NCBI GenBank assembly: GCA_965637545.1
Contig: OZ281495.1
Span: 7,316,001-7,380,000, forward strand
Direction of reading: 5' to 3'
Origin: Phallusia mammillata
Lineage: Eukaryota
DNA: 64,000 bases
The position numbers and the translations under genes are program-made. Positions 8,040 to 47,400 of this stretch are shown here, one piece after another (position 1 is the stretch's first letter; each line of letters opens with the position of its first letter). The notes under the pieces are model-generated. The model was given only the letters and a program-made list of their open reading frames with translations. It was not told the DNA's origin and searched no databases.

Positions 8040-8677
8040 TGACCATTTTGATGCACAGTATTTAAGGAATTTCGTGACTGGGCACAGATTTACGACTGTC
8101 AAGAGTGGATATATATGTTTCCACCAAGCCAGTTATTCTAAGATTGATGACAACGACTGTACACAGGGTAACAACAACAAACAAACTAACATTTTCTGTA
8201 TCGGCGGACAGTGCGCAAAATCAAGCAGAGAATGTAACAAAACGTTACAAATGTGATATTAGTGAAAAGTGATTTGCTTATAAATACGAACGCAAAAAGC
8301 ACATGGTAATAATGCATTTCGACGAAAGGCCATTTCAGTGCGAAAGGTGTCATAGCAGATTTAAAACGAAAGGCACCGTGAGAAACCACATGCTGGTTCA
8401 CTCTGCTATAAAACGTTTTAAATGTGTGGTGTGTGACAAACATTTCGTCAAAACTAAAGATTCAAAAGTACATCAGTTCATTCATACCGATGAGAAACCT
8501 TGCGAATGTGTTTATTGCAAAAGAAGATTTAGTGCACCTTCAAGCAGAAGACTGCATCTGAAGATTCTCACCGGTGAAAGAAAACACAAGTGTAAAGTGT
8601 GTGAGAAATCATTTACGCAACCTCGTACACTCGATAACCATATAATCACACACACAGAAGAAAAATCGAGTCAATAG
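8040..8677 (+). pseudogene. C2H2 zinc-finger pseudogene (third paralogue)
   Basis: QASYSKIDDNDCTQ matches EASYSKNDDNNCTE of the intact gene; frameshift and stop near 8200-8270; about four fingers in ORF 8303-8677. Confidence 0.8.
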
Positions 8678-10149
8678 CGCAGAAACCAATAAATTTCGAA
8701 TTAACATTAAAATGAAATATGGAATCAACAGAGAGACTAAATGGCAAACACACATAGACGGTGTTTGCACGAAAAAGAATTTATTATTTAGTGGGAAACC
8801 GTTTTCTCTATGTTTATGATGTTGCTATATTTATTTTATGATGTGCTAGCGTCCTCCAATTAACGTGAAAACTCACAGTAACCAGGTTTGCTAACATTGA
8901 AACTGGGGTCAAGGGTGCTGGACCATTTGCCTGCCCGGTAAGCATTTTTACGTAAATTGCATTCAAAATTATGCTTGCGCCACCTACCGGAAATTAGCAA
9001 GACTGGCTACTGTGAGTTCTTACGTCATTAGCTCCACCTTGCCCAGGTTTCACATGACTGCACCCTTATTTCGAGCTACGCAAGAAACAACAGTTTTTCA
9101 TGGTGTTAACATGTGCATTGATGAGAAATAAGTTATTAGATGTTTTGGGAACTACATTTTTACGTACAGATTCGTAGACATCGAAGCATCAGAACGTTTT
9201 TTTTCTTTAATAGTTATTATGACGACGCCGAAATGAAGTGCTTCGCACCCAGAAATACCGGCTTTAATGTAAACATTGTGCAATATTGTTACGTTGGCTG
9301 GTACTTCGGTTTAAATCGCAGGTTCTAGGCCTTTTTGTCTCGAAAGTCACTGTCACGAAACCATGAAAGGAGAGAATAACAACATAAACTCGAATTTATT
9401 GGTAGACCATAGATATATGCCCGGAAATATACAAAAAGGGCGATACTAAGAAGTAAATTCGAACGGTAAAAACTTTAGCTGGTGGAAGGCTTATGATGCA
9501 AAGTTTTCTGACATTTGGAAAAAGGAAACTGAGATAATCTCAGACACTGACAAAACGCAACAACAAATATATAGCTTTGCGTTTTATCCACTTATCACTA
9601 GTCGATTTTCAGGCTTGTTTAAAATTTAGAAAACATTTGACCACCAAAACCACAAACAAAACAAATTTCTGCGATGATTTATTGTGTAGTGAAACCACAT
9701 TCACAAATAACTGCGGCAAATTGATTCAGCGCTTATACACAGGGATCGAAAATGTTTCATGTTATGCAAGCTGTAAAATCCTAATATCAACTCAGAACAT
9801 TGTCAACCCAGACCAATATTATCTAGCAAGGGGTATGACATTTTACATGCCTATTTCCAAAGTAGGCTTGTCTTTCCAGAGGAAAATTACAAGAAATCGC
9901 TGGCGAAAGTTTAAATTGCAAACAAAAAACAGAAACGGGCATTTCACTATGGAAACCACATAAAGTGTTTGTCTCAAAAAATATTAGTTTAAAGGTTTTT
10001 AAAGTTTGCCATAAATATCACATAACTTACAAAGGTTTATTTTCTTTTGTATGAATCACAACTTTAGCGATTAACGAACGCTTGTTTGTTTTGAAAAACA
10101 TTACATCGAATGGGTTTCACCATTGTGGTATATCATATGTTTTTGTAAT

Positions 10150-10950
10150 TCACGTTTGGAACGATACGTTTTTTTCACAAGTATCACGCTTGAACGGTTT
10201 TTCACCTGTGTGAGTCATCCAATGAGTTTTAAGCGCCCCAGATTGAATGAATGATTTTTCACAAACGTCACATTTATATTTTCTTTCTCCAGTGTGAATA
10301 CTCAAATGTTTACTTCTGTTTGAAGTCAAATTAATTTTTTTGTCACAGTAACTACAAGGGTAAGGTTTCTCACCAGTATGAATCAACTCGTGTCTTTTTA
10401 AATCTCTTTTTTCGATGAAACGTTTAGCACACATCTTACACGTGTAACGTTTAAAGTCGGTATGAATCAACAAGTGTCTTTGTAGTTGGTAGCTGATTTT
10501 AAACCGCTTTTCGCAAATTTCACACTTAAAGGTCTTTCATCATTGTGTACTAACAAATGGGTGTGAAGGGCTCCTTCAAATTTAAAACTTTTCTCACTTT
10601 TTTCTCATCTGAATGAACCAACACATGTGATTTCAAATTTTGCTTGCTTTTGAACTTCATGTCGCAATTTTCGCACTGAAAAGGTCTATCATCAGAATGC
10701 ACGAACAGCATGTGCGATCTGCGGCCTCGCTGGTGAGCAAAAGACTTTTCACAAACATCACATTTGAAAGGTTTTTCTTTCAGCATATGTTTAAAGTTTG
10801 TTGCATTTTTGAGTTGAACTTTGGTCATTAGTCTGAATGTGGTCAACGGATGCAATTACTTTTTTTGGTTGACCTCTTGTAGCGCCACCTTGCTTTGAAA
10901 GTTGTACATTTGGCTTACACAAAATATATTTTGAATACACCATTTAACAT
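10150..10950 (-). pseudogene. C2H2 zinc-finger pseudogene (fourth paralogue)
   Basis: Finger arrays in ORFs 10550-10855 and 10150-10473, linked by frameshifted finger remnants (HTHLLVHNDERP; CEICEKRFKISYQLQRH). Confidence 0.8.
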
Positions 10951-24753: not shown

Positions 24754-27187
24754 ATGGCAAAGAAAATTGAAGTAAGTTATCGAAGGCATATCAGTTAGTG
24801 CATTTTTGCCTAGTTTTGCGAGCCTAAGTTGTTATTTTGCTATTGTCAGTTGCAAAAGTACGACGCAGAAGAATTTCAGTGTTTTACTGGAAGTGCTGGT
24901 AATCTTGGATCGGGTACTTATGCTGTAGTGATACTTGCAACTCATCAAGTTTTAGGTCAAGTTGCATTAAAGTGTTTTCCTGCTAGGGGTGGCCAAGCTA
25001 TGGAGGAACAGTAAGTAGCATTCTACTTTGTCAAACCTTAAAACTTTTACCTTTGTAAAATTTCCCTACTACACTAGAAATTAATAGCAAAATCAATCGT
25101 TCTATGCTGCTGGTCCGTTTGGAAACGATTTTTAGATTTACCTTGGTTAGTAACGTTTTAACTAGCTGCTGTCACACAGGGTTAAAAGCGAACTTGCCTG
25201 TCTTCAAAGATCAAACAACGAATATATTGTTCGTGTATTTGGCTGGACAGAATGGTCGGGTGGAAATGCTATTATCATGGAGTGTTGCGACTATGGCAAT
25301 CTCACGACTGTATTGTTGAACTCAAACATTGAACTGTCGGTGCCACTTCTTTTGCAAATGTGCACGGAAATGGCAAAAGGCCTGGCACACGTCCATAACT
25401 TTAGCAAGGAAAAACGCATGGTACATACTGATGTGAAGCCAGGCAATGTCCTTCTGGCAAAAGAGTTGCATTGTAGATTATCTGACTTCGGTGGGGCAAA
25501 AATATGTAACTACACAACTGCAGTTACGTCAGCTCCCAATCCCAAACGTGATCAATACACTTTAGCTTATACTGCTCCAGAGGTACTATGCCAACCCAGT
25601 TTGCCTTTGAGAAAAGAGCAAGACACTTATGGTTTTGGAATTACTACCCATATGCTTTTGACCCGACGTTTCCCATTCAATACAGCTAAAGATGTCTTTG
25701 TGGAAGCAGTTAAGTCAGGAATTCGACCTGACACTGCAGAGATTGAGCTCCTGAAGAAAAAATCAAGTGGTAAAGATCTAGAAAGTATTCAGGTGATGGA
25801 AGACGTGATGAAAAAGTGCTGGGAACAAAACCCGGAAGATAGGCCTAATATGTTGGAAGTCGCGAAGCGATTAAGTGAGCAACTGGCCAAATATCAACGT
25901 TTTGAGATTATCAGTAGTGTCATGAAAGCCATGAAACATATGACTCCTGTAGACGATGCTTCAAACCTCACAGGACAATGGGTTTCGCTTGACAGATTTA
26001 TGCCGGAAAGCCGTACTTTCATAGGTGTTCGAGTGCAAGATGACCAACCTTTAGTTGTTGCATCAGAAGGTATGTTCAAAATTCCATATTTAAGTCTGTT
26101 TATCATATAGTGGGCAAAGTCTTTGCTGGTGAGGCGTCTCATAAGCATTTCCATGCTGCAAGGAAAAAGTCAATCATATGGGCAACGCGTTGTTTTCCAG
26201 TTCGTTATTGCTAAATCCCTGGTATAACTATAAATCCCTGGTATATAACTATAAGACATACGTTTACTAATCCTTGTTTCCTAATCTTTCAGATGCAGTG
26301 TTGAAACAACTGCAAGAAGATCCATCTTTTAGAGAAATATTTCATAACGATTGTAAGACGTGTTTCTAGTCTCAAAAACATAGTTTTAAAAGTGTCTAGA
26401 TATTTGACAAGTTTTTGTTTATGTTGTAGTCAAAACGGCTTCATCGCTGATGCAGCGCTACGTGGACTTCGCGACCAACGGCCAATTTAACAACAACTTT
26501 ACTGTGGCATCCGAACTGCTGAGGATCATCGAATCTAGTCCAATATCTGCGGCCGACAGTGCCGAAGTGTACGCCGCAAAGCTTACAAAGAAAAATAAGT
26601 TCCTCCTTGCATTGTTGTTTTACTATATAGCTGGAACTTTGTACAGAAATAAGCGAAACAAATCGTACGCTTTGGACGGAATTGTTCGCTGCTGTGAGGG
26701 GCTTTTTGATGTCAGCGAAATGATGATGGCCCAAGATCCAGCAAACACAAATATACTGTCTAACCTCAGTATCAAATGCATTTACCAGTTGTGTAACATT
26801 GTTGCAAAGCTATCGTCTGTTGACAAGAAAAACAGATGCTTGACTTGGTCTTGGTGCATGTTCTACATGGAGTGCACCTACCATAGCACAAAGGACTGGA
26901 AAAGTATGGAAGCAACGCTGAATGAGGCATTACGAGGTTTAAACACGGTTTTCGGTGGAGAAGTTAAAAGGCAGTTGATCTACGCTCATTGCCTAAACGG
27001 GCTTGGCGTGACATATAAGCACCAGAAAAATTACCAAGCAGCTTGTCAACACTACAAGCAAGCGATAGAAGCGTACAGGCATCTTATTGAGGAAGGCAAC
27101 AAGTCTGAAATGGCAAATTACATTGAATTGGTGCAAAACAATCATCGCAAAGCCGAGCTTAAACTCGTTAAATCTCCACCAACATAA
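24754..27187 (+). CDS. RIPK-like (TKL group) Ser/Thr kinase with C-terminal TPR-like helical domain, about 628 aa, 5 exons
   Basis: Exons 24754-24771, 24850-25010, 25180-26069, 26293-26352, 26430-27187 (1887 nt, in frame). GSGTY, VALK, alphaC Glu (KSELAC), HTDVKPGN, DFG, YTAPE, CWEQNPEDRP; TPR-like YAHCLNGLGVTYKHQKNYQAACQHYKQAI. Confidence 0.85.
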
Positions 27188-27670
27188 ATGAATTTCCGAT
27201 TTTCATATCAATGCGTAAATAAACTTCTAAGTCATTTCTTAATCTGAAATGCACAGTATTTTTTCTTCATTGCAGTTAAACTGCTAAGTTTCACTTTTTA
27301 CATGGTGTTCGTTTAATCACACTTTTGTTAGTTTTTCTTCCATTTTAAAAACACTCACAAAACAGATTTAGCATACACAATAATAAAAGCATGAAAACAA
27401 TTAAATTGTGGTGTGAATTTGAAGCAATCTGGTGCATGCTTTGCTTCGTATATTTGGTAAACGTGTGGTATTCATTATGTAAATCAGACTTGTGTTTGTT
27501 GTTAAAAGTGAGAAATTAGGTCAACCAAAATATCTTGAGAAACACACAACAGTGTTAACAATAAAAAGGGCACTGTTACGATATTTTCTAAAAGCAAAAG
27601 AATGGCACAACTTGGAAACCTGAATGATATGAGTAGTAGTGGTTCGTCCCGGGGCTCCCTCCACCTGTTT

Positions 27671-27788
27671 GGTCCAGTCACCCCCAAGTGGCTACCGCCA
27701 CCTGGTCCCGTCACCCAAGTGGCTACCGCCACCTATTTTGGTCCCGTCACCCAAGTGGCTACCGCCACCTATTTTAGTACAGTCACCT
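27671..27788 (+). repeat. Subterminal 33-36-bp tandem repeats of the Polinton end (mirrored at 38173-38290)
   Basis: GGTCCCGTCACCCAAGTGGCTACCGCCACCT(ATTTT) three times plus a partial copy. Confidence 0.9.
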
Positions 27789-27927
27789 GTTGGTTGATTA
27801 TGTCATGCGGGTATTAATGTGGTCGTATCACCATTGTTCTGTGAGATCGCGACCGGTCGCGAGAGAGAGAGAGGACTAGAGCCGGCGGCGGTTTTTGTCG
27901 CCGTTCGCAAAAGTCGGAACTTGGTTG

Positions 27928-27935
27928 TATATAAA
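27928..27935 (+). promoter_or_regulatory. TATA box upstream of the Polinton ATPase
   Basis: TATATAAA about 45 nt before the ATG at 27979. Confidence 0.5.
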
Positions 27936-27978
27936 GCGTGTGCGTTGATTATTTTGTTAGTCTAGTTTTCATTTGAGA

Positions 27979-28261
27979 ATGGAGTTTATTCATCCATTTA
28001 CGTGTGTTGTTGCGGGTCCGACGGGTTGTGGAAAGACTTTTTTCGTTTCGCGTTTGATAAGTGAGAACTTGGTTACACCGCCTGCGGAGCGTGTGGTTTG
28101 GTGTTACGGTGTAGAATTTGTTCGCGGTCTTTCAACTGAATTTGACTCTTCGAAGAGAACACTTTTGATCATTGACGACTTGATGAGTGAATGCGACAAA
28201 AGCGTGACGAATCTATTTACAAAGGGAAGTCATCATAAGAATATAAGCGTGATTTACATTG
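27979..28261 (+). pseudogene. Truncated Polinton/adintovirus A32/FtsK-like DNA-packaging ATPase, left arm
   Basis: MEFIHPFTCVVAGPTGCGKT (Walker A), LLIIDDLM (Walker B), LFTKGSHHKNISVIYIV; cut by the LTR at 28262. Confidence 0.8.
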
Positions 28262-28828
28262 TGTCACAAATGTGCTATAGACCGACCTCCGATAGTACAT
28301 GACCTAATTCACAGGCGACGTTATCTTGCAATCACCGGACGTTCATTGTGCGTGCCAAGTCTTTTGTTGCAGGCTGCAGCCTCACACTGTCTTTTCCTTT
28401 GTTTTCGCCCAATGTATCAGTCTTATTGTGTCGCCCGTCACTCGCCGCAGCCGTTATTGTTGTAAATGTTCAAGTCCAGCAGAGTTAACGTTTTGACCCT
28501 AGCCATTGTGACTCGAACGATATAAATAGGCCTGTTTTGTAAAACGAGTCATTATAATACAAACTCGCGCTGGTAGAAGTTTATACGGTAGGGCGTTTAG
28601 CGTATGTGTGTTTATACAATTGTAATTTGATATAGTGGTTTAACTTACAATCGTTTACTGTGTCTGTAAGTAATCATATTTCTTGTATGTTGATTCTATT
28701 TGAATAAGGCAATAAAGGTGTAGGAAAAGTGGTTATTGCTGATCAGAGTACACGAGCGTTAGTTGTTAAAGAACTTCCGATAGTCAGTCCCAAATCTTTT
28801 GCGTAACCGTGCAAACGGGAACGTGACA
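28262..28828 (+). mobile_element. Gypsy 5' LTR, 567 bp
   Basis: TGTCAC...GTGACA inverted termini; TATAAA 28521-28526; AATAAA 28711-28716; PBS follows; first 215 bp match 33511-33725. Confidence 0.92.
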
Positions 28829-28830
28829 TC

Positions 28831-28848
28831 TGGGGGCTCGTCCGGGAT
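28831..28848 (+). promoter_or_regulatory. Primer-binding site complementary to the tRNA-Pro 3' end (mirrored at 37113-37130)
   Basis: TGGGGGCTCGTCCGGGAT is the complement of the eukaryotic tRNA-Pro 3' end ATCCCGGACGAGCCCCCA; it starts 2 nt after the LTR. Confidence 0.9.
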
Positions 28849-28896
28849 ACTGACTTAAAAACGCGAAGTTGAACACTAACCCCTGTAAGATCGGCA

Positions 28897-31800
28897 ATGA
28901 TGTCTATAAACCGTTATGTGGAGGCGGAAAAACAGATGGGACTGGTTGACCAAGACTTGCGTCAATACGTCGATGAGCAAATAAATAAGGAAGAAGAACG
29001 TGAGGAAAGGAGACTTAACCGTGAAGCCGAGACTGAGCGAAAGAGACTTGAGATCGAGCTGAGGAAACTTGAGGCCGACGCTGAACAGAAAAGACGTGAA
29101 GATGAGCAAAGAAAACAAGAAAGGGAAGAGCGGCAACAAGTCCGCGAGCACGAACTGGCTATGAAAAAGCTTGAGGTGGAAGATAGACAAAGCCGCGAAG
29201 AGACCAGAAGCACTTCGACAACGTGCAGCAGTAACGCTGGTGCCGGCAAGTGTCCAGAGCTTCCCAAATTTGTGGACGATGTGGATGACATGGACGGATA
29301 TTTGCTGCGGTTTGAGAGATACGCAGAGAATAGCGGTTGGGAGAGAAGCCAATGGGCGCCATGGCTCAGTGCACTGCTGACGGGAAAAGCGATGGGAGTA
29401 TACTCTCGACTGTCAGCAGAAGAGGCCAGGGACTACGAGGTGCTGAAACGTGCGTTGCGGGAACGGTATGGATTACGCGAGGACGGATACCGCCACAAGT
29501 TTAATAATGAAACCCAACAGCAAGGCGAAACGGTTTCCCAGTATTTCGTGCGGTTTGAAAATTACTTGGATAGTTGGGTGGAAATGGCCGGCATCGAAAA
29601 GACCTACAAAGGGCTTAAGGAACTTTTCCTTCGCGAAAAGTTCCACAAAGACAGTTACAAGGAACTGTCGCTGTACATGAGGCAGCACTCATCAAACGAT
29701 TTAAAGGAGTTCGCGGAAAAGGCCGATAGGTTTATTGGGCCGTTAAAAAAGACGATTAGCGGGCACAGCTGCGACACGAAACATCCCCGAGCTGCTGTGT
29801 ATTATTCCAACTGTGGTAGACCAATGCAACCAGGCGCGAGTCATCCTTTGTTGGGCCCCACTGACCGCCGATGCTTTATCTGCAACGCTCAAGGACATAT
29901 TGCAAGAGACTGTCGTTTGAGGAGAACCGAAGAGGGGCCACATCACCAAACAGACAGAGCAGAGAACGCCTTGGTTGTTCAGGTTCGGAACCAGAACCTT
30001 AAGGCGACAATGGGTCGAGTAGGACAGAGATCGGTGGAAACGATTCGCGATACGGGATGTACCTCAGTAGTGATTCGTAGGTCCTTAGTCTCAGATCACC
30101 AACTAACGGGAAAAGTGCAATACGTCCAGGGTTTCAAAGGGAAGGCTGAACCTGCACCGGTGGCGCTCAATACAGTCGACACGCCCTATTACTCAGGTAC
30201 GGTTGAGGCAATTTGCGTGACCGACTTAAACGTCGACCTAATCATTGGCAACGTACCTGGGACCAGAAATTGGGGCTCACCAGATCCAAACTGGAGTGCC
30301 GCACCCGTGGAAACCTGTGCAGTTGTCACACGATCCGCAGCACGTGAGCGGGGCCAAACGAAACCCTTAAGAATATCTGGCTGCAAAGGATTCGACGTTA
30401 TAAATCGGGAGTCTTTTCTACAAGCCCAAAATGAAGATGCATCATTGGATAAGTTTCGGGACAAGTCAGGGACAAGGTCACAGGGCGACGGTCATGTGAA
30501 GTTTGTTCGAAAGGGGAACCTCCTGTACAGAGAGTTCTGGCATCCTAAGTTCAACTATGGAAAGCCAATTCAACAGCTGATGGTTCCTATGGCTTATCGA
30601 TGCAAGATAATGGAGGTAGCTCATGACTCCATGATGAGTGGCCATATGGGTATAAAGAAAACGCTAGACCGCATTCTTAGAAATTTTTACTGGCCTGGTG
30701 TAAGAGGAGATGTTCAACGATTTTGCAAATCCTGCGATGTCTGCCAGAAGACGATTTGCAAGGGGAGAGTTGCAAAAGTTCCACTTCAGAGAATGCCAGC
30801 AGTCGATGAACCATTTAAAAGAGTTGCAGTAGACTTGGTCGGCCCAATTCACCCACCAAGTGAAGAGGGGCATCGCTATTTACTGACTTTGGTCGATTAC
30901 GCCACCCGGTATCCTGAGGCAGTGCCGTTGAAGAACATCACTACAGAGGATGTGGCGGAAGCGTTGGTTGATATTTACAGCAGGGTGGGCATTCCATACG
31001 AGGTGCTATCGGACCAAGGAACCCAGTTCATCTCCAGCTGCATGAGGGAGGTCGAACGGCTTTTAAAGGTGCGCCATCTAAAGACTACTCCGTATTCTCC
31101 GCAATGCAATGGGTTAGTTGAAAAATTTAATGGTACTTTAAAGACAATGCTGAAGCGACTGTGCAACGAGCAGCCGAAGCAATGGCATCGGTATGTAAAT
31201 CCCTTACTGTTTGCTTATCGTGAAGTACCCCAGGAATCCACTGGGTTTGCGCCGTTTGAGCTTCTGTATGGTCGAACGGTCAGAGGACCGCTTCACATCC
31301 TCAAGGACATGTTCACCAACGAGACAACAGATCCAGAAACCATGTGCAGCTACCAATATGTGTTTGAGCTTCGAGAGAGACTGGAAAATACCATGCAAAT
31401 CGCCAAAGAAGCAAGTGTGAGGGCACAAACCAGGTACAAGAAGAATTTTGACCGCAAGGCAAGAAGGCGGACGCTTAAGGAAGGTGATCAGGTTTTAGTT
31501 CTGCTCCCTACCGATAGCAACAAGTTGCTCATGCAATGGAAGGGACCGTTTCAAGTCGAAGGGAAAGTTGGAATCAATGACTACCGCGTAAACGTCAAAG
31601 GTAGTACTAAGCTTTACCACATTAACTTATTAAAGGAATACGTCCAACGAGGATCAACAGAAGAAAATGGATCGACGACAAGCGACGCGCTGGTAATGAG
31701 TGCTTTGTGCCATAATGAAATTCCCGACTCGGTGGACGACGACGAATTGCTGGAGTTAAACTTGGGAACCCACCATGAAACAACCGATGACCTGGTCGTC

Positions 31801-33419
31801 AGTGATTCTCTCACCGACTCACAGAAGCAAGAAGTCAGGAAGATTGTCGAAGCACATGTAGAGGTATTTTCTGAAAAGCCCGGATGCATGAACTTGGTTG
31901 AACACAGTATTCAACTTACCAACGAAAAGCCCATACGATCGAAGCCCTACGCAGTACCTTTTAACGTGCGCGAATCATTACGAAAAGATATTCGCGAAAT
32001 GTTAGACACAGGAGTGATAAGACCTTCAACGTCATCATATGCGTCACCGGTGGTTATTGTTCGAAAGAAGGATGGATCAAACAGGATTTGCATCGATTAT
32101 CGAAAACTTAACAAGGTAACGGTGTTTGATCCTGAACCTATGACAACGGCCCAGGATGTTTTCCACGACTTGAGAGACGACAAGTACTTTTCGACGATCG
32201 ATTTGACTAAAGGATACTGGCAAGTAAAAGTCACTGACTCAGACGTACACAAGACAGCTTTTGTGACACCGGATGGATGCTACGAATTTTGCAAGATACC
32301 ATTTGGGATNNNNNNNNNNNNNNNNNNNNNNNNNNNNNNNNNNNNNNNNNNNNNNNNNNNNNNNNNNNNNNNNNNNNNNNNNNNNNNNNNNNNNNNNNNN
32401 NNNNNNNNNNNNNNNNNNNNNNNNNNNNNNNNNNNNNNNNNNNNNNNNNNNNNNNNNNNNNNNNNNNNNNNNNNNNNNNNNNNNNNNNNNNNNNNNNNNN
32501 NNNNNNNNNGGATGGATGCTACGAATTTTGCAAGATGCCATTTGGGATGAAAAACTCCAGTGCAACGTTTGTACGCGGGATGCGAAAGTTGTTGAAAGGT
32601 ATGAGGAACGTGGAACATTACATAGACGACGTCATTGTACATACGAAAACTTGGGAAGAGCACCTTACGACGCTGCAAGAGTTGTTTAAGCGACTGGCGC
32701 AAGCCCACATAACTGCACGACCAACCAAATGTCTCCTGGGTGCAGGTGATGTTAATTTTCTGGGGCATCACATCGGGAAAAATGTCATTGGCTTGCATCA
32801 GGATAACGTGGAGAAAATAAAAGACGCATCAAGGCCAAGAACCAAAACGGAGGTCAGATCGTTCCTGGGGTTAACCGGCTACTATCGGGACTACATTCCA
32901 AACTATGCCTCTATAGCTGTGCCGCTAACGGATCTTACCAGAAAGGGTCACCCGGATACCGTCGATTGGGGCGACGAACAACAAACAGCCTTTGACAACC
33001 TTAAATCAGTATTGTCAAGCAAGCCAATTCTACATCTACCGGACACTACACGTGAATTTGTTTTACGGACCGACGCCTCATGCGAGGGTATTGGGGCCGT
33101 TCTGCTCCAAATGCACGATGAACAATACTTTCCAATAAGCTATGCGAGTAAAAGGTTATCGAGTGCAGAGCGACGATACTCCACCATCGAGCGCGAATGC
33201 CTAGCAGTCGTATGGGGGGTTAAAAAATTCATGGTATACCTATACGGACGGAAGTTTATCTTGCAAACAGATCATCAACCATTGTCCTTTTTGCAAAACG
33301 CCAAATTTGACAATGACAGAATCATGCGCTGGGCAATGTACCTTCAAAACTTTGACATTCGCTGCGAGTATATTAAAGGATGCGAAAATGTTGGGGCAGA
33401 TTATCTCAGCCGAATGTAA
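28897..33419 (+). CDS. Gmr1-like Ty3/Gypsy gag-pol polyprotein (Gag-PR-IN-RT-RNase H), about 1427 aa if the gap overlap is merged
   Basis: CCHC knuckle CFICNAQGHIARDC; protease DTG; IN HHCC and D,D(35)E (VAVDLVGP, LSDQG, GLVEKFN); GPF; RT CIDYRKLN, MPFG, YIDD; RNase H TDAS, ERECLA, TDHQPL. Merging the 39-bp overlap across the gap gives 4284 nt in frame. Confidence 0.9.
32310..32509. other. Assembly gap (200 N) inside the RT region
   Basis: Flanks overlap: 32271-32309 equals 32510-32548 except one base (A32298 versus G32537). Confidence 0.97.
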
Positions 33420-33510
33420 TTGGGTTTGGATTGCTTGTTATTGTCGCCACATTTGTGTTTGTTTAACGTAAATTTTCTCGAAAGAAACATTTCTTTTAAA
33501 AACGGGTTTG

Positions 33511-33725
33511 TGTCACAAATGTGCTATAGACCGACCTCCGATAGTACATGACCTAATTCACAGGCGACGTTATCTTGCAATCACCGGACGTTCATTGTGC
33601 GTGCCAAGTCTTTTGTTGCAGGCTGCAGCCTCACACTGTCTTTTCCTTTGTTTTCGCCCAATGTATCAGTCTTATTGTGTCGCCCGTCACTCGCCGCAGC
33701 CGTTATTGTTGTAAATGTTCAAGTC
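33511..33725 (+). mobile_element. Truncated Gypsy 3' LTR (first 215 bp only)
   Basis: Matches 28262-28476, then switches at AGTC into the reverse complement of RT sequence. Confidence 0.92.
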
Positions 33726-36700
33726 AGTGACTTTTACTTGCCAGTATCCTTTAGTCAAATCGATCGTCGAAAAGTACTTGTCGTCTCTCAAGTCGTGGAA
33801 AACATCCTGGGCCGTTGTCATAGGTTCAGGATCAAACACCGTTACCTTGTTAAGTTTTCGATAATCGATGCAAATCCTGTTTGATCCATCCTTCTTTCGA
33901 ACAATAACCACCGGTGACGCATATGATGACGTTGAAGGTCTTATCACTCCTGTGTCTAACATTTCGCGAATATCTTTTCGTAATGATTCGCGCACGTTAA
34001 AAGGTACTGCGTAGGGCTTCGATCGTATGGGCTTTTCGTTGGTAAGTTGAATACTGTGTTCAACCAAGTTCATGCATCCGGGCTTTTCAGAAAATACCTC
34101 TACATGTGCTTCGACAATCTTCCTGACTTCTTGCTTCTGTGAGTCGGTGAGAGAATCACTGACGACCAGGTCATCGGTTGTTTCATGGTGGGTTCCCAAG
34201 TTTAACTCCAGCAATTCGTCGTCGTCCACCGAGTCGGGAATTTCATTATGGCACAAAGCACTCATTACCAGCGCGTCGCTTGTCGTCGATCCATTTTCTT
34301 CTGTTGATCCTCGTTGGACGTATTCCTTTAATAAGTTAATGTGGTAAAGCTTAGTACTACCTTTGACGTTTACGCGGTAGTCATTGATTCCAACTTTCCC
34401 TTCGACTTGAAACGGTCCCTTCCATTGCATGAGCAACTTGTTGCTATCGGTAGGGAGCAGAACTAAAACCTGATCACCTTCCTTAAGCGTCCGCCTTCTT
34501 GCCTTGCGGTCAAAATTCTTCTTGTACCTGGTTTGTGCCCTCACACTTGCTTCTTTGGCGATTTGCATGGTATTTTCCAGTCTCTCTCGAAGCTCAAACA
34601 CATATTGGTAGCTGCACATGGTTTCTGGATCTGTTGTCTCGTTGGTGAACATGTCCTTGAGGATGTGAAGCGGTCCTCTGACCGTTCGACCATACAGAAG
34701 CTCAAACGGCGCAAACCCAGTGGATTCCTGGGGTACTTCACGATAAGCAAACAGTAAGGGATTTACATACCGATGCCATTGCTTCGGCTGCTCGTTGCAC
34801 AGTCGCTTCAGCATTGTCTTTAAAGTACCATTAAATTTTTCAACTAACCCATTGCATTGCGGAGAATACGGAGTAGTCTTTAGATGGCGCACCTTTAAAA
34901 GCCGTTCGACCTCCCTCATGCAGCTGGAGATGAACTGGGTTCCTTGGTCCGATAGCACCTCGTATGGAATGCCCACCCTGCTGTAAATATCAACCAACGC
35001 TTCCGCCACATCCTCTGTAGTGATGTTCTTCAACGGCACTGCCTCAGGATACCGGGTGGCGTAATCGACCAAAGTCAGTAAATAGCGATGCCCCTCTTCA
35101 CTTGGTGGGTGAATTGGGCCGACCAAGTCTACTGCAACTCTTTTAAATGGTTCATCGACTGCTGGCATTCTCTGAAGTGGAACTTTTGCAACTCTCCCCT
35201 TGCAAATCGTCTTCTGGCAGACATCGCAGGATTTGCAAAATCGTTGAACATCTCCTCTTACACCAGGCCAGTAAAAATTTCTAAGAATGCGGTCTAGCGT
35301 TTTCTTTATACCCATATGGCCACTCATCATGGAGTCATGAGCTACCTCCATTATCTTGCATCGATAAGCCATAGGAACCATCAGCTGTTGAATTGGCTTT
35401 CCATAGTTGAACTTAGGATGCCAGAACTCTCTGTACAGGAGGTTCCCCTTTCGAACAAACTTCACATGACCGTCGCCCTGTGACCTTGTCCCTGACTTGT
35501 CCCGAAACTTATCCAATGATGCATCTTCATTTTGGGCTTGTAGAAAAGACTCCCGATTTATAACGTCGAATCCTTTGCAGCCAGATATTCTTAAGGGTTT
35601 CGTTTGGCCCCGCTCACGTGCTGCGGATCGTGTGACAACTGCACAGGTTTCCACGGGTGCGGCACTCCAGTTTGGATCTGGTGAGCCCCAATTTCTGGTC
35701 CCAGGTACGTTGCCAATGATTAGGTCGACGTTTAAGTCGGTCACGCAAATTGCCTCAACCGTACCTGAGTAATAGGGCGTGTCGACTGTATTGAGCGCCA
35801 CCGGTGCAGGTTCAGCCTTCCCTTTGAAACCCTGGACGTATTGCACTTTTCCCGTTAGTTGGTGATCTGAGACTAAGGACCTACGAATCACTACTGAGGT
35901 ACATCCCGTATCGCGAATCGTTTCCACCGATCTCTGTCCTACTCGACCCATTGTCGCCTTAAGGTTCTGGTTCCGAACCTGAACAACCAAGGCGTTCTCT
36001 GCTCTGTCTGTTTGGTGATGTGGCCCCTCTTCGGTTCTCCTCAAACGACAGTCTCTTGCAATATGTCCTTGAGCGTTGCAGATAAAGCATCGGCGGTCAG
36101 TGGGGCCCAACAAAGGATGACTCGCGCCTGGTTGCATTGGTCTACCACAGTTGGAATAATACACAGCAGCTCGGGGATGTTTCGTGTCGCAGCTGTGCCC
36201 GCTAATCGTCTTTTTTAACGGCCCAATAAACCTATCGGCCTTTTCCGCGAACTCCTTTAAATCGTTTGATGAGTGCTGCCTCATGTACAGCGACAGTTCC
36301 TTGTAACTGTCTTTGTGGAACTTTTCGCGAAGGAAAAGTTCCTTAAGCCCTTTGTAGGTCTTTTCGATGCCGGCCATTTCCACCCAACTATCCAAGTAAT
36401 TTTCAAACCGCACGAAATACTGGGAAACCGTTTCGCCTTGCTGTTGGGTTTCATTATTAAACTTGTGGCGGTATCCGTCCTCGCGTAATCCATACCGTTC
36501 CCGCAACGCACGTTTCAGCACCTCGTAGTCCCTGGCCTCTTCTGCTGACAGTCGAGAGTATACTCCCATCGCTTTTCCCGTCAGCAGTGCACTGAGCCAT
36601 GGCGCCCATTGGCTTCTCTCCCAACCGCTATTCTCTGCGTATCTCTCAAACCGCAGCAAATATCCGTCCATGTCATCCACATCGTCCACAAATTTGGGAA

Positions 36701-37064
36701 GCTCTGGACACTTGCCGGCACCAGCGTTACTGCTGCACGTTGTCGAAGTGCTTCTGGTCTCTTCGCGGCTTTGTCTATCTTCCACCTCAAGCTTTTTCAT
36801 AGCCAGTTCGTGCTCGCGGACTTGTTGCCGCTCTTCCCTTTCTTGTTTTCTTTGCTCATCTTCACGTCTTTTCTGTTCAGCGTCGGCCTCAAGTTTCCTC
36901 AGCTCGATCTCAAGTCTCTTTCGCTCAGTCTCGGCTTCACGGTTAAGTCTCCTTTCCTCACGTTCTTCTTCCTTATTTATTTGCTCATCGACGTATTGAC
37001 GCAAGTCTTGGTCAACCAGTCCCATCTGTTTTTCCGCCTCCACATAACGGTTTATAGACATCAT
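33722..37064 (-). pseudogene. Inverted, 3'-truncated copy of the gag-pol ORF (Gag-PR-IN-partial RT), still open for 1125 aa
   Basis: ORF-track translation is identical to the + copy for 1114 aa (to VKVTD), then runs 11 aa into antisense LTR (stop at 33687). Confidence 0.9.
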
Positions 37065-37132
37065 TGCCGATCTTACAGGGGTTAGTGTTCAACTTCGCGT
37101 TTTTAAGTCAGTATCCCGGACGAGCCCCCAGA

Positions 37133-37699
37133 TGTCACGTTCCCGTTTGCACGGTTACGCAAAAGATTTGGGACTGACTATCGGAAGTTCTTTAACAACT
37201 AACGCTCGTGTACTCTGATCAGCAATAACCACTTTTCCTACACCTTTATTGCCTTATTCAAATAGAATCAACATACAAGAAATATGATTACTTACAGACA
37301 CAGTAAACGATTGTAAGTTAAACCACTATATCAAATTACAATTGTATAAACACACATACGCTAAACGCCCTACCGTATAAACTTCTACCAGCGCGAGTTT
37401 GTATTATAATGACTCGTTTTACAAAACAGGCCTATTTATATCGTTCGAGTCACAATGGCTAGGGTCAAAACGTTAACTCTGCTGGACTTGAACATTTACA
37501 ACAATAACGGCTGCGGCGAGTGACGGGCGACACAATAAGACTGATACATTGGGCGAAAACAAAGGAAAAGACAGTGTGAGGCTGCAGCCTGCAACAAAAG
37601 ACTTGGCACGCACAATGAACGTCCGGTGATTGCAAGATAACGTCGCCTGTGAATTAGGTCATGTACTATCGGAGGTCGGTCTATAGCACATTTGTGACA
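37133..37699 (-). mobile_element. Inverted complete Gypsy 5' LTR in the right arm
   Basis: Mirror of 28262-28828. Confidence 0.92.
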
Positions 37700-37982
37700 C
37701 AATGTAAATCACGCTTATATTCTTATGATGACTTCCCTTTGTAAATAGATTCGTCACGCTTTTGTCGCATTCACTCATCAAGTCGTCAATGATCAAAAGT
37801 GTTCTCTTCGAAGAGTCAAATTCAGTTGAAAGACCGCGAACAAATTCTACACCGTAACACCAAACCACACGCTCCGCAGGCGGTGTAACCAAGTTCTCAC
37901 TTATCAAACGCGAAACGAAAAAAGTCTTTCCACAACCCGTCGGACCCGCAACAACACACGTAAATGGATGAATAAACTCCAT
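37700..37982 (-). pseudogene. Truncated Polinton packaging ATPase, right arm
   Basis: Mirror of 27979-28261; identical translation in the ORF track. Confidence 0.8.
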
Positions 37983-38424
37983 TCTCAAATGAAAACTAGA
38001 CTAACAAAATAATCAACGCACACGCTTTATATACAACCAAGTTCCGACTTTTGCGAACGGCGACAAAAACCGCCGCCGGCTCTAGTCCTCTCTCTCTCTC
38101 GCGACCGGTCGCGATCTCACAGAACAATGGTGATACGACCACATTAATACCCGCATGACATAATCAACCAACAGGTGACTGTACTAAAATAGGTGGCGGT
38201 AGCCACTTGGGTGACGGGACCAAAATAGGTGGCGGTAGCCACTTGGGTGACGGGACCAGGTGGCGGTAGCCACTTGGGGGTGACTGGACCAAACAGGTGG
38301 AGGGAGCCCCGGGACGAACCACTACTACTGATATGGTAAACACAAGTACAAAGACAAATTTAAATTCCAAAAGAACAAATGTTCCGATGGTGCGATGGTG
38401 CGATCAAGCATCAACTTGTTGCAA

Positions 38425-41400: not shown

Positions 41401-44400
41401 TAAAGTCTTATACATATTTTTCTAGTTGAAAAAAGTTCATCCTTTGAAACCCACCTTTGATCGAAACGTAATATTGTACATGATGATGGCAAAAATAATG
41501 AGGTTGGTAAAAAGAATTGCTCCCACAGGAATAACCACTGAATATAAAAGAGGAGCGGAAGTGATCCAACAGTATCTATCGCTTTTGTAATCTGCAAGGT
41601 CCAATGTGTTTGCCAAAACTGCCACAAAACCAGCTGGAACACCTGCATGAAAATGAAGCTTAAATCAAAGAAGACTATTTTAAATTAATTTGTTTTACAG
41701 GACCTATGCAAACAGCTGGGAATGTAACGACTGCTTTTTGACTTAAAAGGGTGGTAATCATAGCAAATTTCTCTTTTTGCACTAAAGCAAACCACATTTA
41801 GAAACCGCCCTAAAGCAATTCTGATAGCCTAACATCAGCGTTTGTTGCTCGTTGCCAATCACAACCTGTACGAATTCATCAGGGGGAAAGTGGCCAACAA
41901 TAGAATCACAAACTATGCATCTCCACACATAACCAAAAACAGTGCCACATAAGTCATGCCTACACACGCTTGGTGAGATGAAATTTTAACAGTTTAGATT
42001 AAAAGTTCCATTTACGTAGAGAGCTTAAAGCAACCTCGTTTACCCTTTATACACCGATTTGTCAAAACGCTGAAAGCCCCTCGCTTGCACCAGTCACGTG
42101 TGTTACGACATCATTGCCTATAGTTTCCTGATTCGTCGATTAATCACCATGTAGCGTGTGACGAATGTCATAGTTTAAAGGGGTGCGTGTAGGTGAAGTA
42201 AAATTAACCCATTTGTCCTGGCTAAAGCGAGTGTTGTATATCTGTGATTCAGACATCAAATTTAATACAAAGTCAATCTAAAGAAGTCAACGCAATATGT
42301 AGTACAAAGTGTAGTTTGGACATGACTGTTGGGAAATATGGTTTGCCAGCATATTACGTTTCGGGTACTGGTTCTAAACAGGTGGTTTTAGGTTGGGCCC
42401 AGGAAGTCGACTATGTAGTTTTTTCGCATAATTTCAGAAAATTCTGTTTTCAGGAAACATACTTCAGGCCAAATGGCACATTGTCTTTGTTTGCTCAAAA
42501 TGTAACTGGTCAACGGTATTCTTTCAGTCGGAATAGTGGTTTATGTGATGGATTGAGAACTACAGGTATCGGGTACCATGACGTTATGAAAACCCACCCA
42601 AGCTTACTGTTAAAACAGCTTTTCAGTAGGTTGCTTGCAATTAAGTAAGCGATACCCGCATATCTATCGGTGTTTTCACATGACATCAATTTCCATACTA
42701 AAGTCTTACCGTAACACAAAACAGATGCAATCCAAATAAATCTATTTTCGTGTCCACTTCCTGTTTTCGCGAGAACCAGGGTTCGAAAGAGCAGTACAGC
42801 TTCTGCCAACATCCATGCCCACGAGAGGAGGACTGCATAATGGAGGATAACAGTAATGACAAAACAAAACGTGGGAAATTCCATCCGCTCGATTCCGATC
42901 AGGAATGCAATGTTGAGGAAAAGAAGAGAGCAACATAGATGGATCAACACTTGTTGGGGCAACTTGCTTCTTAAATGCCTGTAGAATTACAATGGACAAC
43001 AGTTTGAATATATGCGTGCGACTCGGTAAACTTTTAAAGCAAACTATAAGAAATAAAGGTATTTAAATACACACACAAAAATATAAAAATTTGAAATTAT
43101 GTAATTCCCTCTTATTGCATTCTCGAGGTTTTGTTAACTATTTGTTAACCAAGCCTAAATGGTACGCATTCTGATAAGCATTGAAGTATTATTGTACTAG
43201 AAGTGCTTACAAATTAAAAAGTCTCCCATTACAACCGGTGTCACAAAACCTCAATGCAAATGGCAGTATTTAAACTTTGCAAAACTGAAAGGTTGAAGTG
43301 CATAAAAGTGACTTAGAACTTCAAACTCCCTAAATCAGGGGTGGGCAACCTTTTTCACTGTGGGGCCAAATACAATTGCGATGATTAGATCACGGGCCGC
43401 ACCTTTATGTAAAATAAGGTGATTTTACTCCGTTGCATACCAAAAATGCCTTGCTACAAGTAAAATTCGCATTTAATTCAAGCAGCGTATTGTCAGGTCG
43501 TAGAAAATAGCACCTGGCGCACTAATCCGCTCAAAAAAATATAAAGTTGGACTCGTTTGCCATAACATTTGAAATCCAAGTGTCTCTGCGGGCCGCACAA
43601 CTTTAATCAAAGGGCCGCATGTGGCCCGCGGGCCTGCAGGTTGCCCACCCCTGCCCTAAATGATTCGATCAAAATAACAGTCATTGTGTGTTATAGAATA
43701 GCTTGCCATGTGTAATGTTTTATGGTGCTTTTGAGAAACAGGGGTTTTGATTTTCCTAAGCTAGGGATTTGTGACTTACTTGAAATAAAGATAAGTAAAT
43801 ACGGTTGCTAGGAGGCAAGCAATTGAAACTGAACAACCAGCGATGGTAAGGGAAATGAGGTAGGGAGGGTGATAGAATTCATCTATACTCTGTAAAAGAA
43901 AAATGCATTTAATATCTGTATCGCAAAGGGAAATACATTTGTAATTTTAAAACACGCAAGATTGGTAGAAACTGTGATGCATTTATAATAATTACAGGAT
44001 AGCTATACAGGCATTTTAACGTTTCACAGCAGTAAAATTCTACTAAACAGCGCAACACAGCCATTTCCTACTTAATTTACATATAAACAAAAGACAACTC
44101 TTTCGAAACTTGGCAAAGCATAGCCAGTTAAAACTAACTTCAAAACAATTTTGACATTTACTCACCAAAATCACGCCAAACGGTGTCATGTGATTGCACG
44201 AGCACGTGATTAGTTCGTACCCATCCGTGACGTTTTCACGTGATTCCATTTCGCATCCAGCCTCGGACCACAAATCGCTGTTTAAATCCCAATAAACACA
44301 CTTTACAGTGGCTCGTCGCTGCATGACGTCGCTTGACGTGTTTGTGACGTCACTTGAAAAATTCCCGCTTCGTGTTAGCGGCACCACGTGGCGAGTTATC

Positions 44401-47400
44401 ACCGCTGAGCTGAGGTCTTTCATCTCGGCGTTTTTCACCTCGACGGACAAAACGTGACTAATGACGTCGCTTGTCACGTGACGCGTCGGGCCTTCACCAA
44501 ATGTGTTACCGACCACTTGATTTTGCTGCTCCACAAAAAGGGAGTTTTTTCGGTAAAGGACTGCGCCAACTTGAAGTGTATTAAGATTGTACTTGTTGCG
44601 AGCCTCGTGTAGAAGATTGTGGGAGAGATAAACTTCACTGGCTTGTTGTTCTAAGCCACTAACTGGTTCCCCTAAAGTTGTACCTCCTTCTCCAGTATAC
44701 TCAGCTTCATTAGTCAGGTCCTCGATTTCAATACCGACATTTTTGCGATTGATTCTCAAGTTACCCTAACACACAACACAGATTACATTGCATAACTGTA
44801 CACATCAATCTGACTTTTGTCTTAGATTTATTTTAATTAAACTTTTTAATTCTAAGAAGTTCTTGTGCTTGACAATTTTCTTTATTTCCATTGAATAATG
44901 TGACAAGGATTACCCAGTTAAATTATTTTAACTAAACTTTTTAACTTCAAGAAGTACTGGTGCTAGACAATTTTTTTTTTAGTTCCATAATGCTGACTTA
45001 CTTCGTAAACATGAAAATTATCATTGAATATTAAATATCACAAACCTGTGACACGTTATAGTGATTGGTGACGGTTTCGACGGCAACAAGCACGTCATGG
45101 GAAGATTGTTCGTCAAAGTTTTGCGATGAAACGTCAAGAAGTGTGCTTAGTTGACTTGAAAGTAAGCTTACAGTCCCCTGGTTTATGTTTGTTTTGTTCT
45201 GGAGTCCGACTATTGACTGTGTTAGTTCTTTAGCTTGAAGCGGGGTGTAAGTTGTAGGGTCTGAAAAAGTAAGTAAATAAGGCAATGAATTGGTTATTGC
45301 TTTCAAAGTTAATTGGGAAGTCAATTAGAATACTACTTGACGTATCAAAACAACTAGTTTGTACATACTCCCTAAAACCAAAAATGACAACAGCGTTATT
45401 GTGTATTATCTAGGACAGTGTTTATCATTTTTTCCAGCGAACGGAGTATATTCGTAGTATTGGAAAGGCAAAGAAAGCTTTTTTTTATGCCACAAAGTTG
45501 TAAGTCGTGCCAGGCCGGGTTTGAGCTCAGGTTTCTTCAAAAAACGGGCTTGATTCGGGTCTGACTTTACACATTTTTTTAAATAAATTTACTTAGCTAA
45601 GTAGCCAATTGCTTGACCTGATCTAATGTCAAACAGTCCTAAAACGCTTTATTCACGACCAATTGTCTATTGCGTTTGTTGTCTTGGTCTTTCCTGAGGC
45701 TTTAATGTGCATGCCTGTCGATCAAACTTTTGGATCTAAACTGGCTAATTTTCAAAAAATGATTCGGGTTTAAGCCGGGTTTTGGGCTCGTACTTTCAGG
45801 TTCGGACTCGTTTACAACTCTGGTATGCCACAAGACTATCACGAACTTTTCTTCGTTAGAGATAACAAATTAGTCCTATATAATTGTCTACAAAACCCGA
45901 TCGCGGGCACACTAATGTGCGAACCTATCGCTTATAGACACATATAATACATTATAACTAAACGCAATGATCCTTAAATATAAATAATAGACATGAAGGT
46001 AAATGGCCGTGTTGTTTTAAGTTGGGATGAAAACAAATTTCGCTCTTTTTTCTCTTACCCTGGTCTTGGCATATGAAAGCGCTATATGTATCACAGTAAG
46101 TATCATCCCATTTCCAGGTTTTATCTCCCCACAACTGAACACAAAATGCACCGACTGTCCTTGGCTCTGCCCTAGCCCAGTTGCTGTAACTGTGAAAAAA
46201 CAGATATAGTTAATAGTGACAGTAACCAGCGGTGATCTAATACACTTATGTTTTTTTTACGGAAACCGGAATATCAACCTAATCCCAGGCATATTTATCA
46301 AAAAGCTGTTAAAATATATTTCAAAGATGTTACATGCGCCTATAATTCAAAGATGTTACATGAGTTCAAAACTTAAATNNNNNNNNNNNNNNNNNNNNNN
46401 NNNNNNNNNNNNNNNNNNNNNNNNNNNNNNNNNNNNNNNNNNNNNNNNNNNNNNNNNNNNNNNNNNNNNNNNNNNNNNNNNNNNNNNNNNNNNNNNNNNN
46501 NNNNNNNNNNNNNNNNNNNNNNNAGAGTTGTAGGGGCAAGCAATATGTAAATTTTAAAGTCTACAATGACTTCCTGTTATCTCTGTCTGGTTAACATAAA
46601 GATACACCACATTGCCAAAAGTAATAATTTCATCCCCAGCAAAATCGGGTCATTGTGAAAACATTGTGAGCAATTTTATCGCATGGTAATTAGTAATCAC
46701 ATGTCATGAATCTTCACCCTTTAACTCAAGCCCTACGAAAAGGGGTATGTGTTGCACTAGGGCAGTGGTCGTCAACCTATGGGTCGCGACCCCAAGTAGA
46801 GTCGCCTAAACTTTTTCTGGGGTCGCAATAAGTCGCTTTAATTTATTGCATTTTAAAATTGATTGCAGAAAATAAAACTAATATTATGTTCTTTTAGATC
46901 GCAACTTTTGCTCTTGTTTTGTGGTACAGCTTGCTACCTCGTGTTGCAATTAAATCGTGGTAGTGAAAAAAGCACAAAATGCCTTTATCGCGTAACAATG
47001 GGTTTGGACAACGTGAATTATGACTTAACACTATAAGTTTGTATTATTTAAGGTGACACCAGAATGAGTGAATAGTTATTTATGTAACGTACCCTACTAT
47101 GTCAAATTTTTCTAATCCCGTTTTCAACCACGTGGCTGTGTAAAGCAGGATTTAGTGCAACGAGTGTATTAGAAACGAAACATCGTAATCGATTGGAAGT
47201 GGAGCATGACATGCGGTTAAGCTTGTGCAAAGTCAAGCCGCGGCTTCAAAAACTTGCGGACAGTATACAGGCGCAACCATCTCACCAACAGTGCAAACTA
47301 AGTGTTGAACAATTTGACAAGTTTGTGTTCCGAAAATTGGGTTTATGTCTTAAATGAAACGCCTTAAAATTTATTTTCGTAATACTTTTGTATAGCCATT

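What the first reader, a model, noticed from the sequence alone, without database searches (positions are those of the whole stretch)
33715..33735. Single copy-back junction with 4-bp microhomology creates the giant inverted arms
The 3' LTR (..TTCAAGTC|CAGC) switches into the reverse complement of RT (..GAGTCAGTGAC) through shared AGTC at 33722-33725, equal to 32236-32239. One template switch explains the whole structure. It parallels copy-back defective viral genomes and panhandle-mediated ITR copying in adenovirus-type strand-displacement replication (established analogues; applying them here is inference).
Basis: partly seen in the sequence, partly recalled or inferred. Interest (0 to 1): 0.7.

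Follow-up and report, generated by a model that had tools for sequence, protein, structure and literature searches.

The report
Young fold-back Polinton carrying trapped retrotransposon
In this assembly, a virus-like jumping element (Polinton) that had a retrotransposon stuck in it has its right end replaced by an exact 4.6-kb mirror copy of its left end through one four-letter junction, likely a fold-back slip during the element's own copying before it inserted here, which would make it a young example of how mirror-image Polinton parasites arise.

Summary
The junction is as described: a Gmr1-type 3' LTR, cut after 215 of 567 bases, turns through shared AGTC into the reverse complement of RT. 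The arms (27632-32239, 33722-38329) are 4608/4608 identical. They end in Polinton/Maverick AGTAGT..ACTACT termini with a 6-bp duplication (GATATG) and carry a packaging-ATPase gene start into which the retrotransposon had inserted. The family's normal terminal repeat is about 270 bp. So the 10.7-kb unit is a Polinton with two copies of one end. One visible switch suffices, but only because the template ends at a Polinton terminus. Off-chromosome fold-back then integration (0.5) cannot be told from in-place repair returning through the terminal repeat (0.33) by sequence. Artefact 0.15: an N run lies in the spacer, no public contig showed the junction, and raw reads were not seen. Three older, gap-free palindromic Polinton relics of another family occur in this genome. 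Two public runs likely carry the empty site. The scan noted palindromic Polinton satellites in other genomes before (unchecked). Repeat extension is known for Galileo and Mu killer; new here is a young case with a base-resolved junction.

The parts
27626..27631 (+). Left copy of 6-bp target-site duplication GATATG
   Evidence: contigs of runs X1 and X2 leave the stretch exactly at 27631
27632..32239 (+). Left arm, 4608 bp, from the Polinton terminus to the fold-back acceptor in RT
27632..27899 (+). Native Polinton terminal inverted repeat, about 268 bp, starts AGTAGTAG (inner end inferred)
   Evidence: two other termini of the family match up to 27899 and then diverge; one of them is followed by pPolB; the X1 contig of a relative starts at 27870
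27979..28261 (+). 5' part of Polinton packaging ATPase (94 codons), 33 bp shorter than relatives, interrupted by the LTR
   Evidence: Pfam Adeno_IVa2 E 1e-6, Pox_A32 E 2e-4; 73 of 94 residues identical to the ATPase of the 17-kb Polinton on C7; 33 extra letters in the X1 contig
28262..28828 (+). 5' LTR, 567 bp, TG..CA; TATAAA at LTR position 260, AATAAA at 450; followed by a primer-binding-site-like TGGGGGCTCGTCCGGGAT (tRNA-Pro type: recalled, not tested)
28873..33419 (+). Gmr1-type gag-pol: gag, zinc knuckle, protease, integrase, RT, RNase H; crossed by the N run
   Evidence: domain order as in PMC8220671
32236..32239 (+). Fold-back acceptor GACT in RT (3' arm of a small palindrome AGTCACTGACT)
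   Evidence: 5 such palindromes in 4443 bp
32240..33721 (.). Single-copy spacer (loop), 1482 bp as assembled
32310..32509 (.). 200 N flanked by a 39-bp direct duplication (1 mismatch); looks like a contig join, cannot be told from a withheld stretch
33511..33725 (+). Truncated 3' LTR, first 215 bp only, 215/215 identical to the 5' LTR; lacks the TATAAA and AATAAA motifs
33722..33725 (+). The fold-back junction, microhomology AGTC
33722..38329 (-). Right arm, exact reverse complement of the left arm (LTR 37133-37699, ATPase fragment 37700-37982, terminal repeat 38062-38329)
38330..38335 (+). Right copy of target-site duplication GATATG

Best explanation
The 10.7-kb unit 27632-38329 is a Polinton/Maverick remnant with two identical copies of its ATPase end and a trapped Gmr1-type retrotransposon; it likely arose when a broken single strand folded back during the Polinton's own protein-primed strand-displacement copying and was then likely inserted here by a Polinton integrase. 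Shown order: (1) the ATPase gene lost 33 bp and took an LTR retrotransposon, before the duplication, since both arms carry both marks; (2) a strand ending at LTR position 215 joined GACT 1.2-1.5 kb upstream and copied back 4.6 kb to the terminus; (3) the unit lies between Polinton termini and a 6-bp duplication. Inferred: the fold-back happened on a linear off-chromosome copy, where running off the terminus ends synthesis and leaves a panhandle with a normal duplex origin; polymerase and integrase came from the parent or a helper Polinton. Predicted: the retrotransposon copy cannot finish a normal RNA, and LTR-driven transcripts would run into the opposite arm and form a hairpin of about 3.7 kb.
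For: Termini and duplication; a 17,032-bp Polinton on C7 has AGTAGT..ACTACT, a 6-bp duplication AGGTTT, ATPase, rve integrase and adenovirus-type protease. Native repeat about 270 bp against 4608 bp here; the longest among 134 intact vertebrate Mavericks is 1447 bp (PMC8097293, passages). No integrase, capsid-like, protease or polymerase gene of Polinton type in the window. Likely empty site: contigs of X1 and X2 follow the left flank to 27631 and run on 446 and 418 other letters; read as right flank they would end at 38781 and 38753, where a high-copy repeat starts at about 38754; X2 has 0 differences in 1032 bp of flank, so the insertion looks young. X2 also holds the deleted ATPase end unchanged over 514 of 514 bp. 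X18 runs from flank into terminus with 0 differences, and its contig over the ATPase/LTR joint has depth 788.9 against 335.5 for the flank, 2.35-fold, as two arms predict (may be the source sample). Recurrence: three older palindromic relics of another Polinton family, arms about 3.6-4.9 kb, 89-99% alike, no N, three different inner ends; one has both termini and a 6-bp duplication GAGAAG; their arms group by element in the trees (support 0.92-1.0). Adenovirus displaced strands re-initiate from a panhandle (PMC9863843, passage). The phi29 polymerase makes inverted joins with deletions at 2-21 nt matches (PMC1855051, abstract).
Against: No precursor in the assembly: the ATPase-end DNA has no other match above 89% apart from one of 55 bp at 95% and two of about 40 bp at 91-93% (15 matches), and the expected LTR-end/target joint has 0 exact matches; in-place repair predicts this absence directly. 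The junction was not seen outside the assembly: 0 of 4 contig sets listed it, and X18 contigs 28262-28629 and 31108-32266 cross both breakpoints unbroken. The empty-site reading rests on contig lengths, not on aligned letters, and X2 could be heterozygous for this very allele. A duplication was found at only 1 of the 3 older palindromes. Arms grouping by element also fits gene conversion in place. Human fold-back duplications show the same spacer and microhomology sizes without any virus (PMC3907307, passages).
Confidence: 0.5

Rival explanations
1. In-place repair. A full Polinton with the retrotransposon inserted here first and made the duplication. After a break, one end used the ~270-bp terminal repeat to copy the other end 4.6 kb inwards and rejoined by AGTC/GACT microhomology (or folded back and returned through the repeat), deleting the rest. 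Two switches, one invisible.
For: Gives the same letters. Explains why no precursor is left in the assembly. Proposed for Galileo repeat extension, TIR1-F1-F1-TIR2, with the F1 region repeated in 22 copies of one group (PMC3573991, passages). Human fold-backs: spacer 766-70,466 bp, 2-8 bp microhomology. Polinton repeats drive rearrangements in C. elegans (PMC11414722, passages).
Against: Needs arrival of a ~20-kb-plus precursor and its rearrangement at one site while the flank stayed 0 differences from X2 and 3 plus 1 gap from X1 over 1032 bp. No intermediate allele seen in the 3 runs that cover the flank. X2 holds the deleted end although its flank contig leaves at the duplication.
Confidence: 0.33
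2. Assembly or library artefact. Two contigs were joined across the N run; they could be opposite-orientation alleles of one Polinton insertion, with the junction from a chimeric read near a contig tip.
For: 200 N with a 39-bp overlap sit 70 bp inside the spacer; the junction is 1.2 kb from that run; arms have 0 differences; no public contig listed the joint; amplified libraries make exactly such inverted joins; an earlier unchecked note on this assembly (e1-9355129) raised a haplotype mix-up for another palindrome.
Against: Needs an inverted allele and a chimera together. Both outer ends are true termini with a matching duplication. The rest of the supposed full element is not in the assembly. 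Depth ratio 2.35 in X18 (not decisive if the flank contig is one haplotype). Three gap-free palindromic Polintons with diverged arms show the layout is real in this genome.
Confidence: 0.15
3. The retrotransposon's own reverse transcription made the inversion (a wrong strand transfer).
For: The junction lies inside the retrotransposon, between LTR and RT.
Against: The duplicated arm runs 630 bp beyond the LTR to the Polinton terminus, and the duplication is 6 bp at Polinton ends, whereas this LTR family makes 5-bp duplications (2 copies).
Confidence: 0.02

Closest known systems
Polinton/Maverick elements (PMC8097293 and PMC6431247, passages read; C7:17447353-17464384 in this genome)
   Same: AGTAGT..ACTACT ends, 6-bp duplication, packaging-ATPase gene next to one terminus
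   Different: Both ends are the ATPase end; 4608-bp repeats instead of 46-1447 bp; no polymerase, integrase, protease or capsid gene of its own; 57% of the span is retrotransposon gag-pol and LTR in mirror image or spacer plus more LTR, only 630 bp per arm is Polinton
Copy-back defective viral genomes (PMC13506859, passages read) and adenovirus panhandle replication (PMC9863843, passage read)
   Same: One genome end copied onto the other; long stem with single-copy loop; both ends keep the origin; needs a helper
   Different: Described mainly for negative-strand RNA viruses; here DNA, integrated and inherited; off-chromosome origin inferred, not shown. Adenovirus genomes with duplicated left ends are recalled only (the 1978 paper was not held)
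Galileo extended terminal repeats (PMC3573991, passages read)
   Same: Internal sequence next to one repeat reappears inverted next to the other
   Different: Cut-and-paste P-type transposon; extension explained by repair in the chromosome. The paper says repeat expansion was also reported for Polintons and cites a 2007 review that I did not see
Maize Mu killer (PMC3440606, passages read)
   Same: Both terminal repeats from one end, inverted duplication of coding sequence, centre hard to sequence, proposed hairpin RNA
   Different: 1.3-kb arms of its own transposase; here the mirrored coding sequence belongs to a passenger retrotransposon; no RNA or silencing shown here, and that paper disputes part of the hairpin model
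Gmr1 clade of Ty3/Gypsy retrotransposons (PMC8220671, passages read)
   Same: Integrase upstream of RT with Gypsy-type RT/RNase H domains, TG..CA LTRs
   Different: 3' LTR cut at 215 bp; 5' part duplicated in reverse; no tree was built

Membership tests
Polinton/Maverick (derivative) | AGT-repeat end motifs at both termini | tested here: met
   AGTAGTAG at 27632, CTACTACT at 38329; same start in two other termini
Polinton/Maverick (derivative) | 6-bp target-site duplication | tested here: met
   GATATG on both sides; the empty site is inferred from contig ends
Polinton/Maverick (derivative) | Packaging ATPase homologue | tested here: met
   5' 94 codons only; Pfam Adeno_IVa2 E 1e-6; 73/94 identical to C7 ATPase
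Autonomous Polinton/Maverick | Own pPolB, rve integrase, protease, capsid genes | tested here: not met
   tblastn with six C7 proteins finds only the ATPase fragments and the retrotransposon integrase at 27%
Copy-back defective viral genome | Both ends from one terminus, complementary arms, single-copy loop, one junction | tested here: met
Copy-back defective viral genome | Made by the viral polymerase on a replicating off-chromosome template | not testable with these tools
   in-place repair gives the same sequence
Copy-back defective viral genome | Propagates with a helper | tested here: inconclusive
   junction single-copy in the assembly; X2 holds the same deleted end; related palindromes of another family at three loci
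Gmr1-type Ty3/Gypsy retrotransposon (passenger) | Order gag-PR-IN-RT-RH | tested here: met
   Pfam positions
Gmr1-type Ty3/Gypsy retrotransposon (passenger) | RT phylogeny within the Gmr1 clade | not tested
   no tree built
Mu killer-like silencer | Hairpin or antisense RNA and small RNAs that silence the family in trans | not testable with these tools
   only predicted from the lost AATAAA of the 3' LTR; no raw RNA reads seen

The most novel reading that the evidence does not exclude
This is a copy-back defective genome of an endogenous DNA virus caught just after birth: made by a Polinton polymerase off the chromosome, integrated by a helper integrase, still polymorphic, one of several independent fold-backs in this genome, and doubling as a Mu killer-like hairpin source against the retrotransposon family it trapped.
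Probability: 0.25. Interest if true: 0.78.

Novelty: new variant of a known kind. Interest (0 to 1): 0.55.

Why it matters
Polinton replication has been inferred from adenovirus likeness, not observed. A young two-identical-ends element with a base-resolved junction, and older palindromes at three more loci, is a natural record against which the strand-displacement and panhandle model can be tested: the off-chromosome route predicts the same junction at several sites and no full-length allele here. It also shows a route by which gene-less palindromic Polinton parasites start, and by which a Polinton can carry and mirror a retrotransposon into a possible double-stranded RNA source.

Tried and rejected
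Raw-read test of the junction: not obtained; the one laying of public data that was answered (left flank and arm, 4 of 20 listed runs, all contigs) lists no strand-change joint, with tables cut (103 loose ends and 607 pieces not shown), so it neither shows nor excludes the junction. Allele vote in X18 at the 14 sites private to the arms: window letter in the contig at 5, other letter at 5, mixed at 1, contig broken at 3; too noisy to count copies. Dating by private changes: 14 (5 synonymous) in 3.3 kb, but other copies carry 8, 12 and 3, so this may be standing family diversity; rejected as a clock. Zero differences in 4608 bp only bounds arm divergence below 6.5e-4, and polishing or conversion could hide differences. 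The small palindrome at the acceptor is 1 of 5 in 4443 bp; noted, not used. X15 covers LTR and gag-pol but not the flank or Polinton part and has the other letter at the private sites shown; its kind is not on record, so nothing on expression is drawn. Segmental duplication of host flank: rejected, the 630 bp outside the LTR are Polinton. DIRS/Ngaro reading of the missing integrase behind RNase H: rejected, the integrase lies upstream of RT. A shared inner junction among the three older palindromes was looked for and not found: their arms end at three different points, which fits separate fold-backs or later central deletions. The pPolB search (62 matches) was only read by eye for inverted pairs and not followed. 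Pfam names the C3 pPolB ORF only weakly (DNA_pol_B_2 E 0.003) and gives no family for the capsid-like ORFs. Paper searches (listings only) showed no title or abstract start on copy-back or palindromic Polintons; the founding Polinton paper, a 2007 review and the 1978 adenovirus paper were not seen, and Repbase entries or supplements may describe such elements.

Full report
Observation. The 3' LTR of a retrotransposon (33511-33725) is identical to the first 215 of 567 bases of the 5' LTR and then turns, through AGTC at 33722-33725, into the reverse complement of RT from 32239 downwards. The arms 27632-32239 and 33722-38329 are 4608 of 4608 identical, with a 1482-bp spacer as assembled. The junction occurs once in the 240-Mb assembly. 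Four shared letters or more are expected at 1.7% of random joins, so the microhomology is modestly above chance.

What the arms are. They run 630 bp beyond the LTR and stop at AGTAGTAG on the left and CTACTACT on the right, each next to GATATG. These are the end motif and 6-bp duplication used to define Mavericks (PMC8097293, passages). The 630 bp hold the first 94 codons of a packaging ATPase (Pfam Adeno_IVa2 E 1e-6), 73 of 94 residues identical to the ATPase of a 17,032-bp Polinton on C7 that has the same end motif, its own 6-bp duplication, an rve integrase and an adenovirus-type protease. Two other termini of the window's family match up to 27899 and then differ; one is followed by pPolB. 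So the native repeat is about 270 bp, and the normal element has two different interiors. Here both ends are the ATPase end, and no other Polinton gene is in the window. The passenger has the order gag, protease, integrase, RT, RNase H, the mark of the Gmr1 clade (PMC8220671, passages); three other copies at 98-99.5% lie on C3, C4 and C6. Because these copies give the native sequence on both sides, the junction is resolved to the base.

Order of events, shown by the sequence. A 33-bp loss in the ATPase and the LTR insertion are in both arms, so they came first; the fold-back came next; the duplication shows an integrase-type insertion at some point. The inversion is not a retrotransposition product: it includes Polinton DNA, and this LTR family makes 5-bp duplications (2 copies).

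Is it real? Against: 200 N with a 39-bp overlap sit in the spacer, and none of 4 public contig sets listed the strand-change joint; X18 contigs cross both breakpoints unbroken (tables were cut and such contigs drop minor branches). For: both outer ends are true termini with a matching duplication; X18 runs from flank into terminus without a difference, and its contig over the ATPase/LTR joint is 2.35 times as deep as the flank (X18 may be the source sample); X1 and X2 leave the stretch exactly at 27631 and run on 446 and 418 letters, which as right flank would end at 38781 and 38753, where a high-copy repeat begins, the pattern of an empty site. And the layout recurs: of 31 ATPase matches, two form inverted same-range pairs, this one and one on C4; the C4 end found two more pairs, on C1 and C3, among 54 matches. 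These three have arms of about 3.6-4.9 kb at 89-99% identity, no N, and different inner ends; the C4 one has both termini and a duplication GAGAAG, the other two show none. Their arms group by element, not by side. I put the chance of an artefact at 0.15.

Mechanism. Inferred from adenovirus-type replication: a protein-primed polymerase copies one strand and displaces the other, which re-initiates from a panhandle (PMC9863843, passage). A displaced strand broken at LTR position 215 can pair its AGTC end with GACT upstream on itself, copy back to the terminus and fall off; the product has a normal duplex end, is copied to a two-ended molecule, and is integrated by a Polinton integrase. The phi29 enzyme makes such inverted joins in vitro (PMC1855051, abstract), which supports the chemistry and the artefact alike. 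The rival is repair in place: a break healed by copying from the other terminal repeat inwards and rejoining at the microhomology, as proposed for Galileo (PMC3573991, passages); human fold-back duplications have the same spacer and microhomology sizes (PMC3907307, passages). The rival explains why no precursor is in the assembly. The young flank, the identical deleted end in X2 and the recurrence in Polintons tip me to the off-chromosome route, 0.5 against 0.33. Neither is shown.

Predicted consequence. The cut 3' LTR lacks the TATAAA (position 260) and AATAAA (450) motifs of the full LTR, so transcripts from either full LTR would run into the opposite arm and could form a stem of about 3.7 kb. 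This is the layout of maize Mu killer, whose two repeats also come from one end (PMC3440606, passages). No RNA evidence was obtained.

Comparison and novelty. It is a non-autonomous Polinton derivative, not an autonomous member; it works like a copy-back defective genome, but membership of that class needs the untested off-chromosome origin. Repeat extension is known for Galileo and Mu killer, and the Galileo paper says it was reported for Polintons, citing a 2007 review I did not see. Searches (listings only) showed no paper on copy-back or palindromic Polintons; the founding paper was not held. This scan has five unchecked notes on palindromic Polinton satellites in other genomes and one on another palindrome in this assembly with a possible haplotype mix-up; an unchecked note calls the host a sea squirt. 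What this case adds is youth, single copy and an exact junction. Verdict: observation confirmed, interpretation partly supported, new variant of a known kind, interest 0.55.

Noticed in passing
G000:C4:11515019-11530127 (L073-L075): Older palindromic Polinton relic: arms about 3.6 kb, 97-99% alike, both termini, duplication GAGAAG, 3532-bp spacer, a 4.4-kb later insertion in the right arm, ATPase and pPolB fragments in both arms.
   Followed up: partly
G000:C1:20931272-20942059 (L086-L087) and G000:C3:5771080-5779506 (L088-L089): Two relatives of the C4 relic with arms of about 4.9 and 4.1 kb and spacers of 1415 and 550 bp; spacer orientation differs between copies; no duplication found (one end truncated or changed). 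A lone end lies at C1:20816141.
   Followed up: partly
G000:C7:17447353-17464384, C3:10285523-10302061, C79: Near-identical (99.5%) Polinton copies of about 17 kb with 52-bp repeats and an internal 258-bp tandem array of variable length.
   Followed up: partly
window 28259 in run X2: The X2 contig of the deleted ATPase end stops at 28259, not 30 letters into the LTR as in X18; unexplained.
   Followed up: no
window 32266 in run X18: An X18 contig ends at 32266, 30 letters behind the start of the acceptor GACT; one letter off what a reciprocal inversion joint would give; unexplained.
   Followed up: no
window 25166-27187: Protein-kinase ORF followed by a TPR ORF; the element lies 445 bp behind the TPR stop codon.
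   Followed up: no
window 2178-3512 and 5474-10800: C2H2 zinc-finger ORF with diverged direct and inverted paralogous stretches nearby.
   Followed up: no
window 42510-44765 (-): Exons of an adhesion-type GPCR (GPS and 7tm_2 domains); a second N run of 145 at 46379-46523 lies behind a short tandem repeat.
   Followed up: no
G000:C4:16500378-16503900 (L035): A copy of the same retrotransposon family is cut at the equivalent of window 31778 by other sequence; another on C6 has two internal deletions.
   Followed up: no
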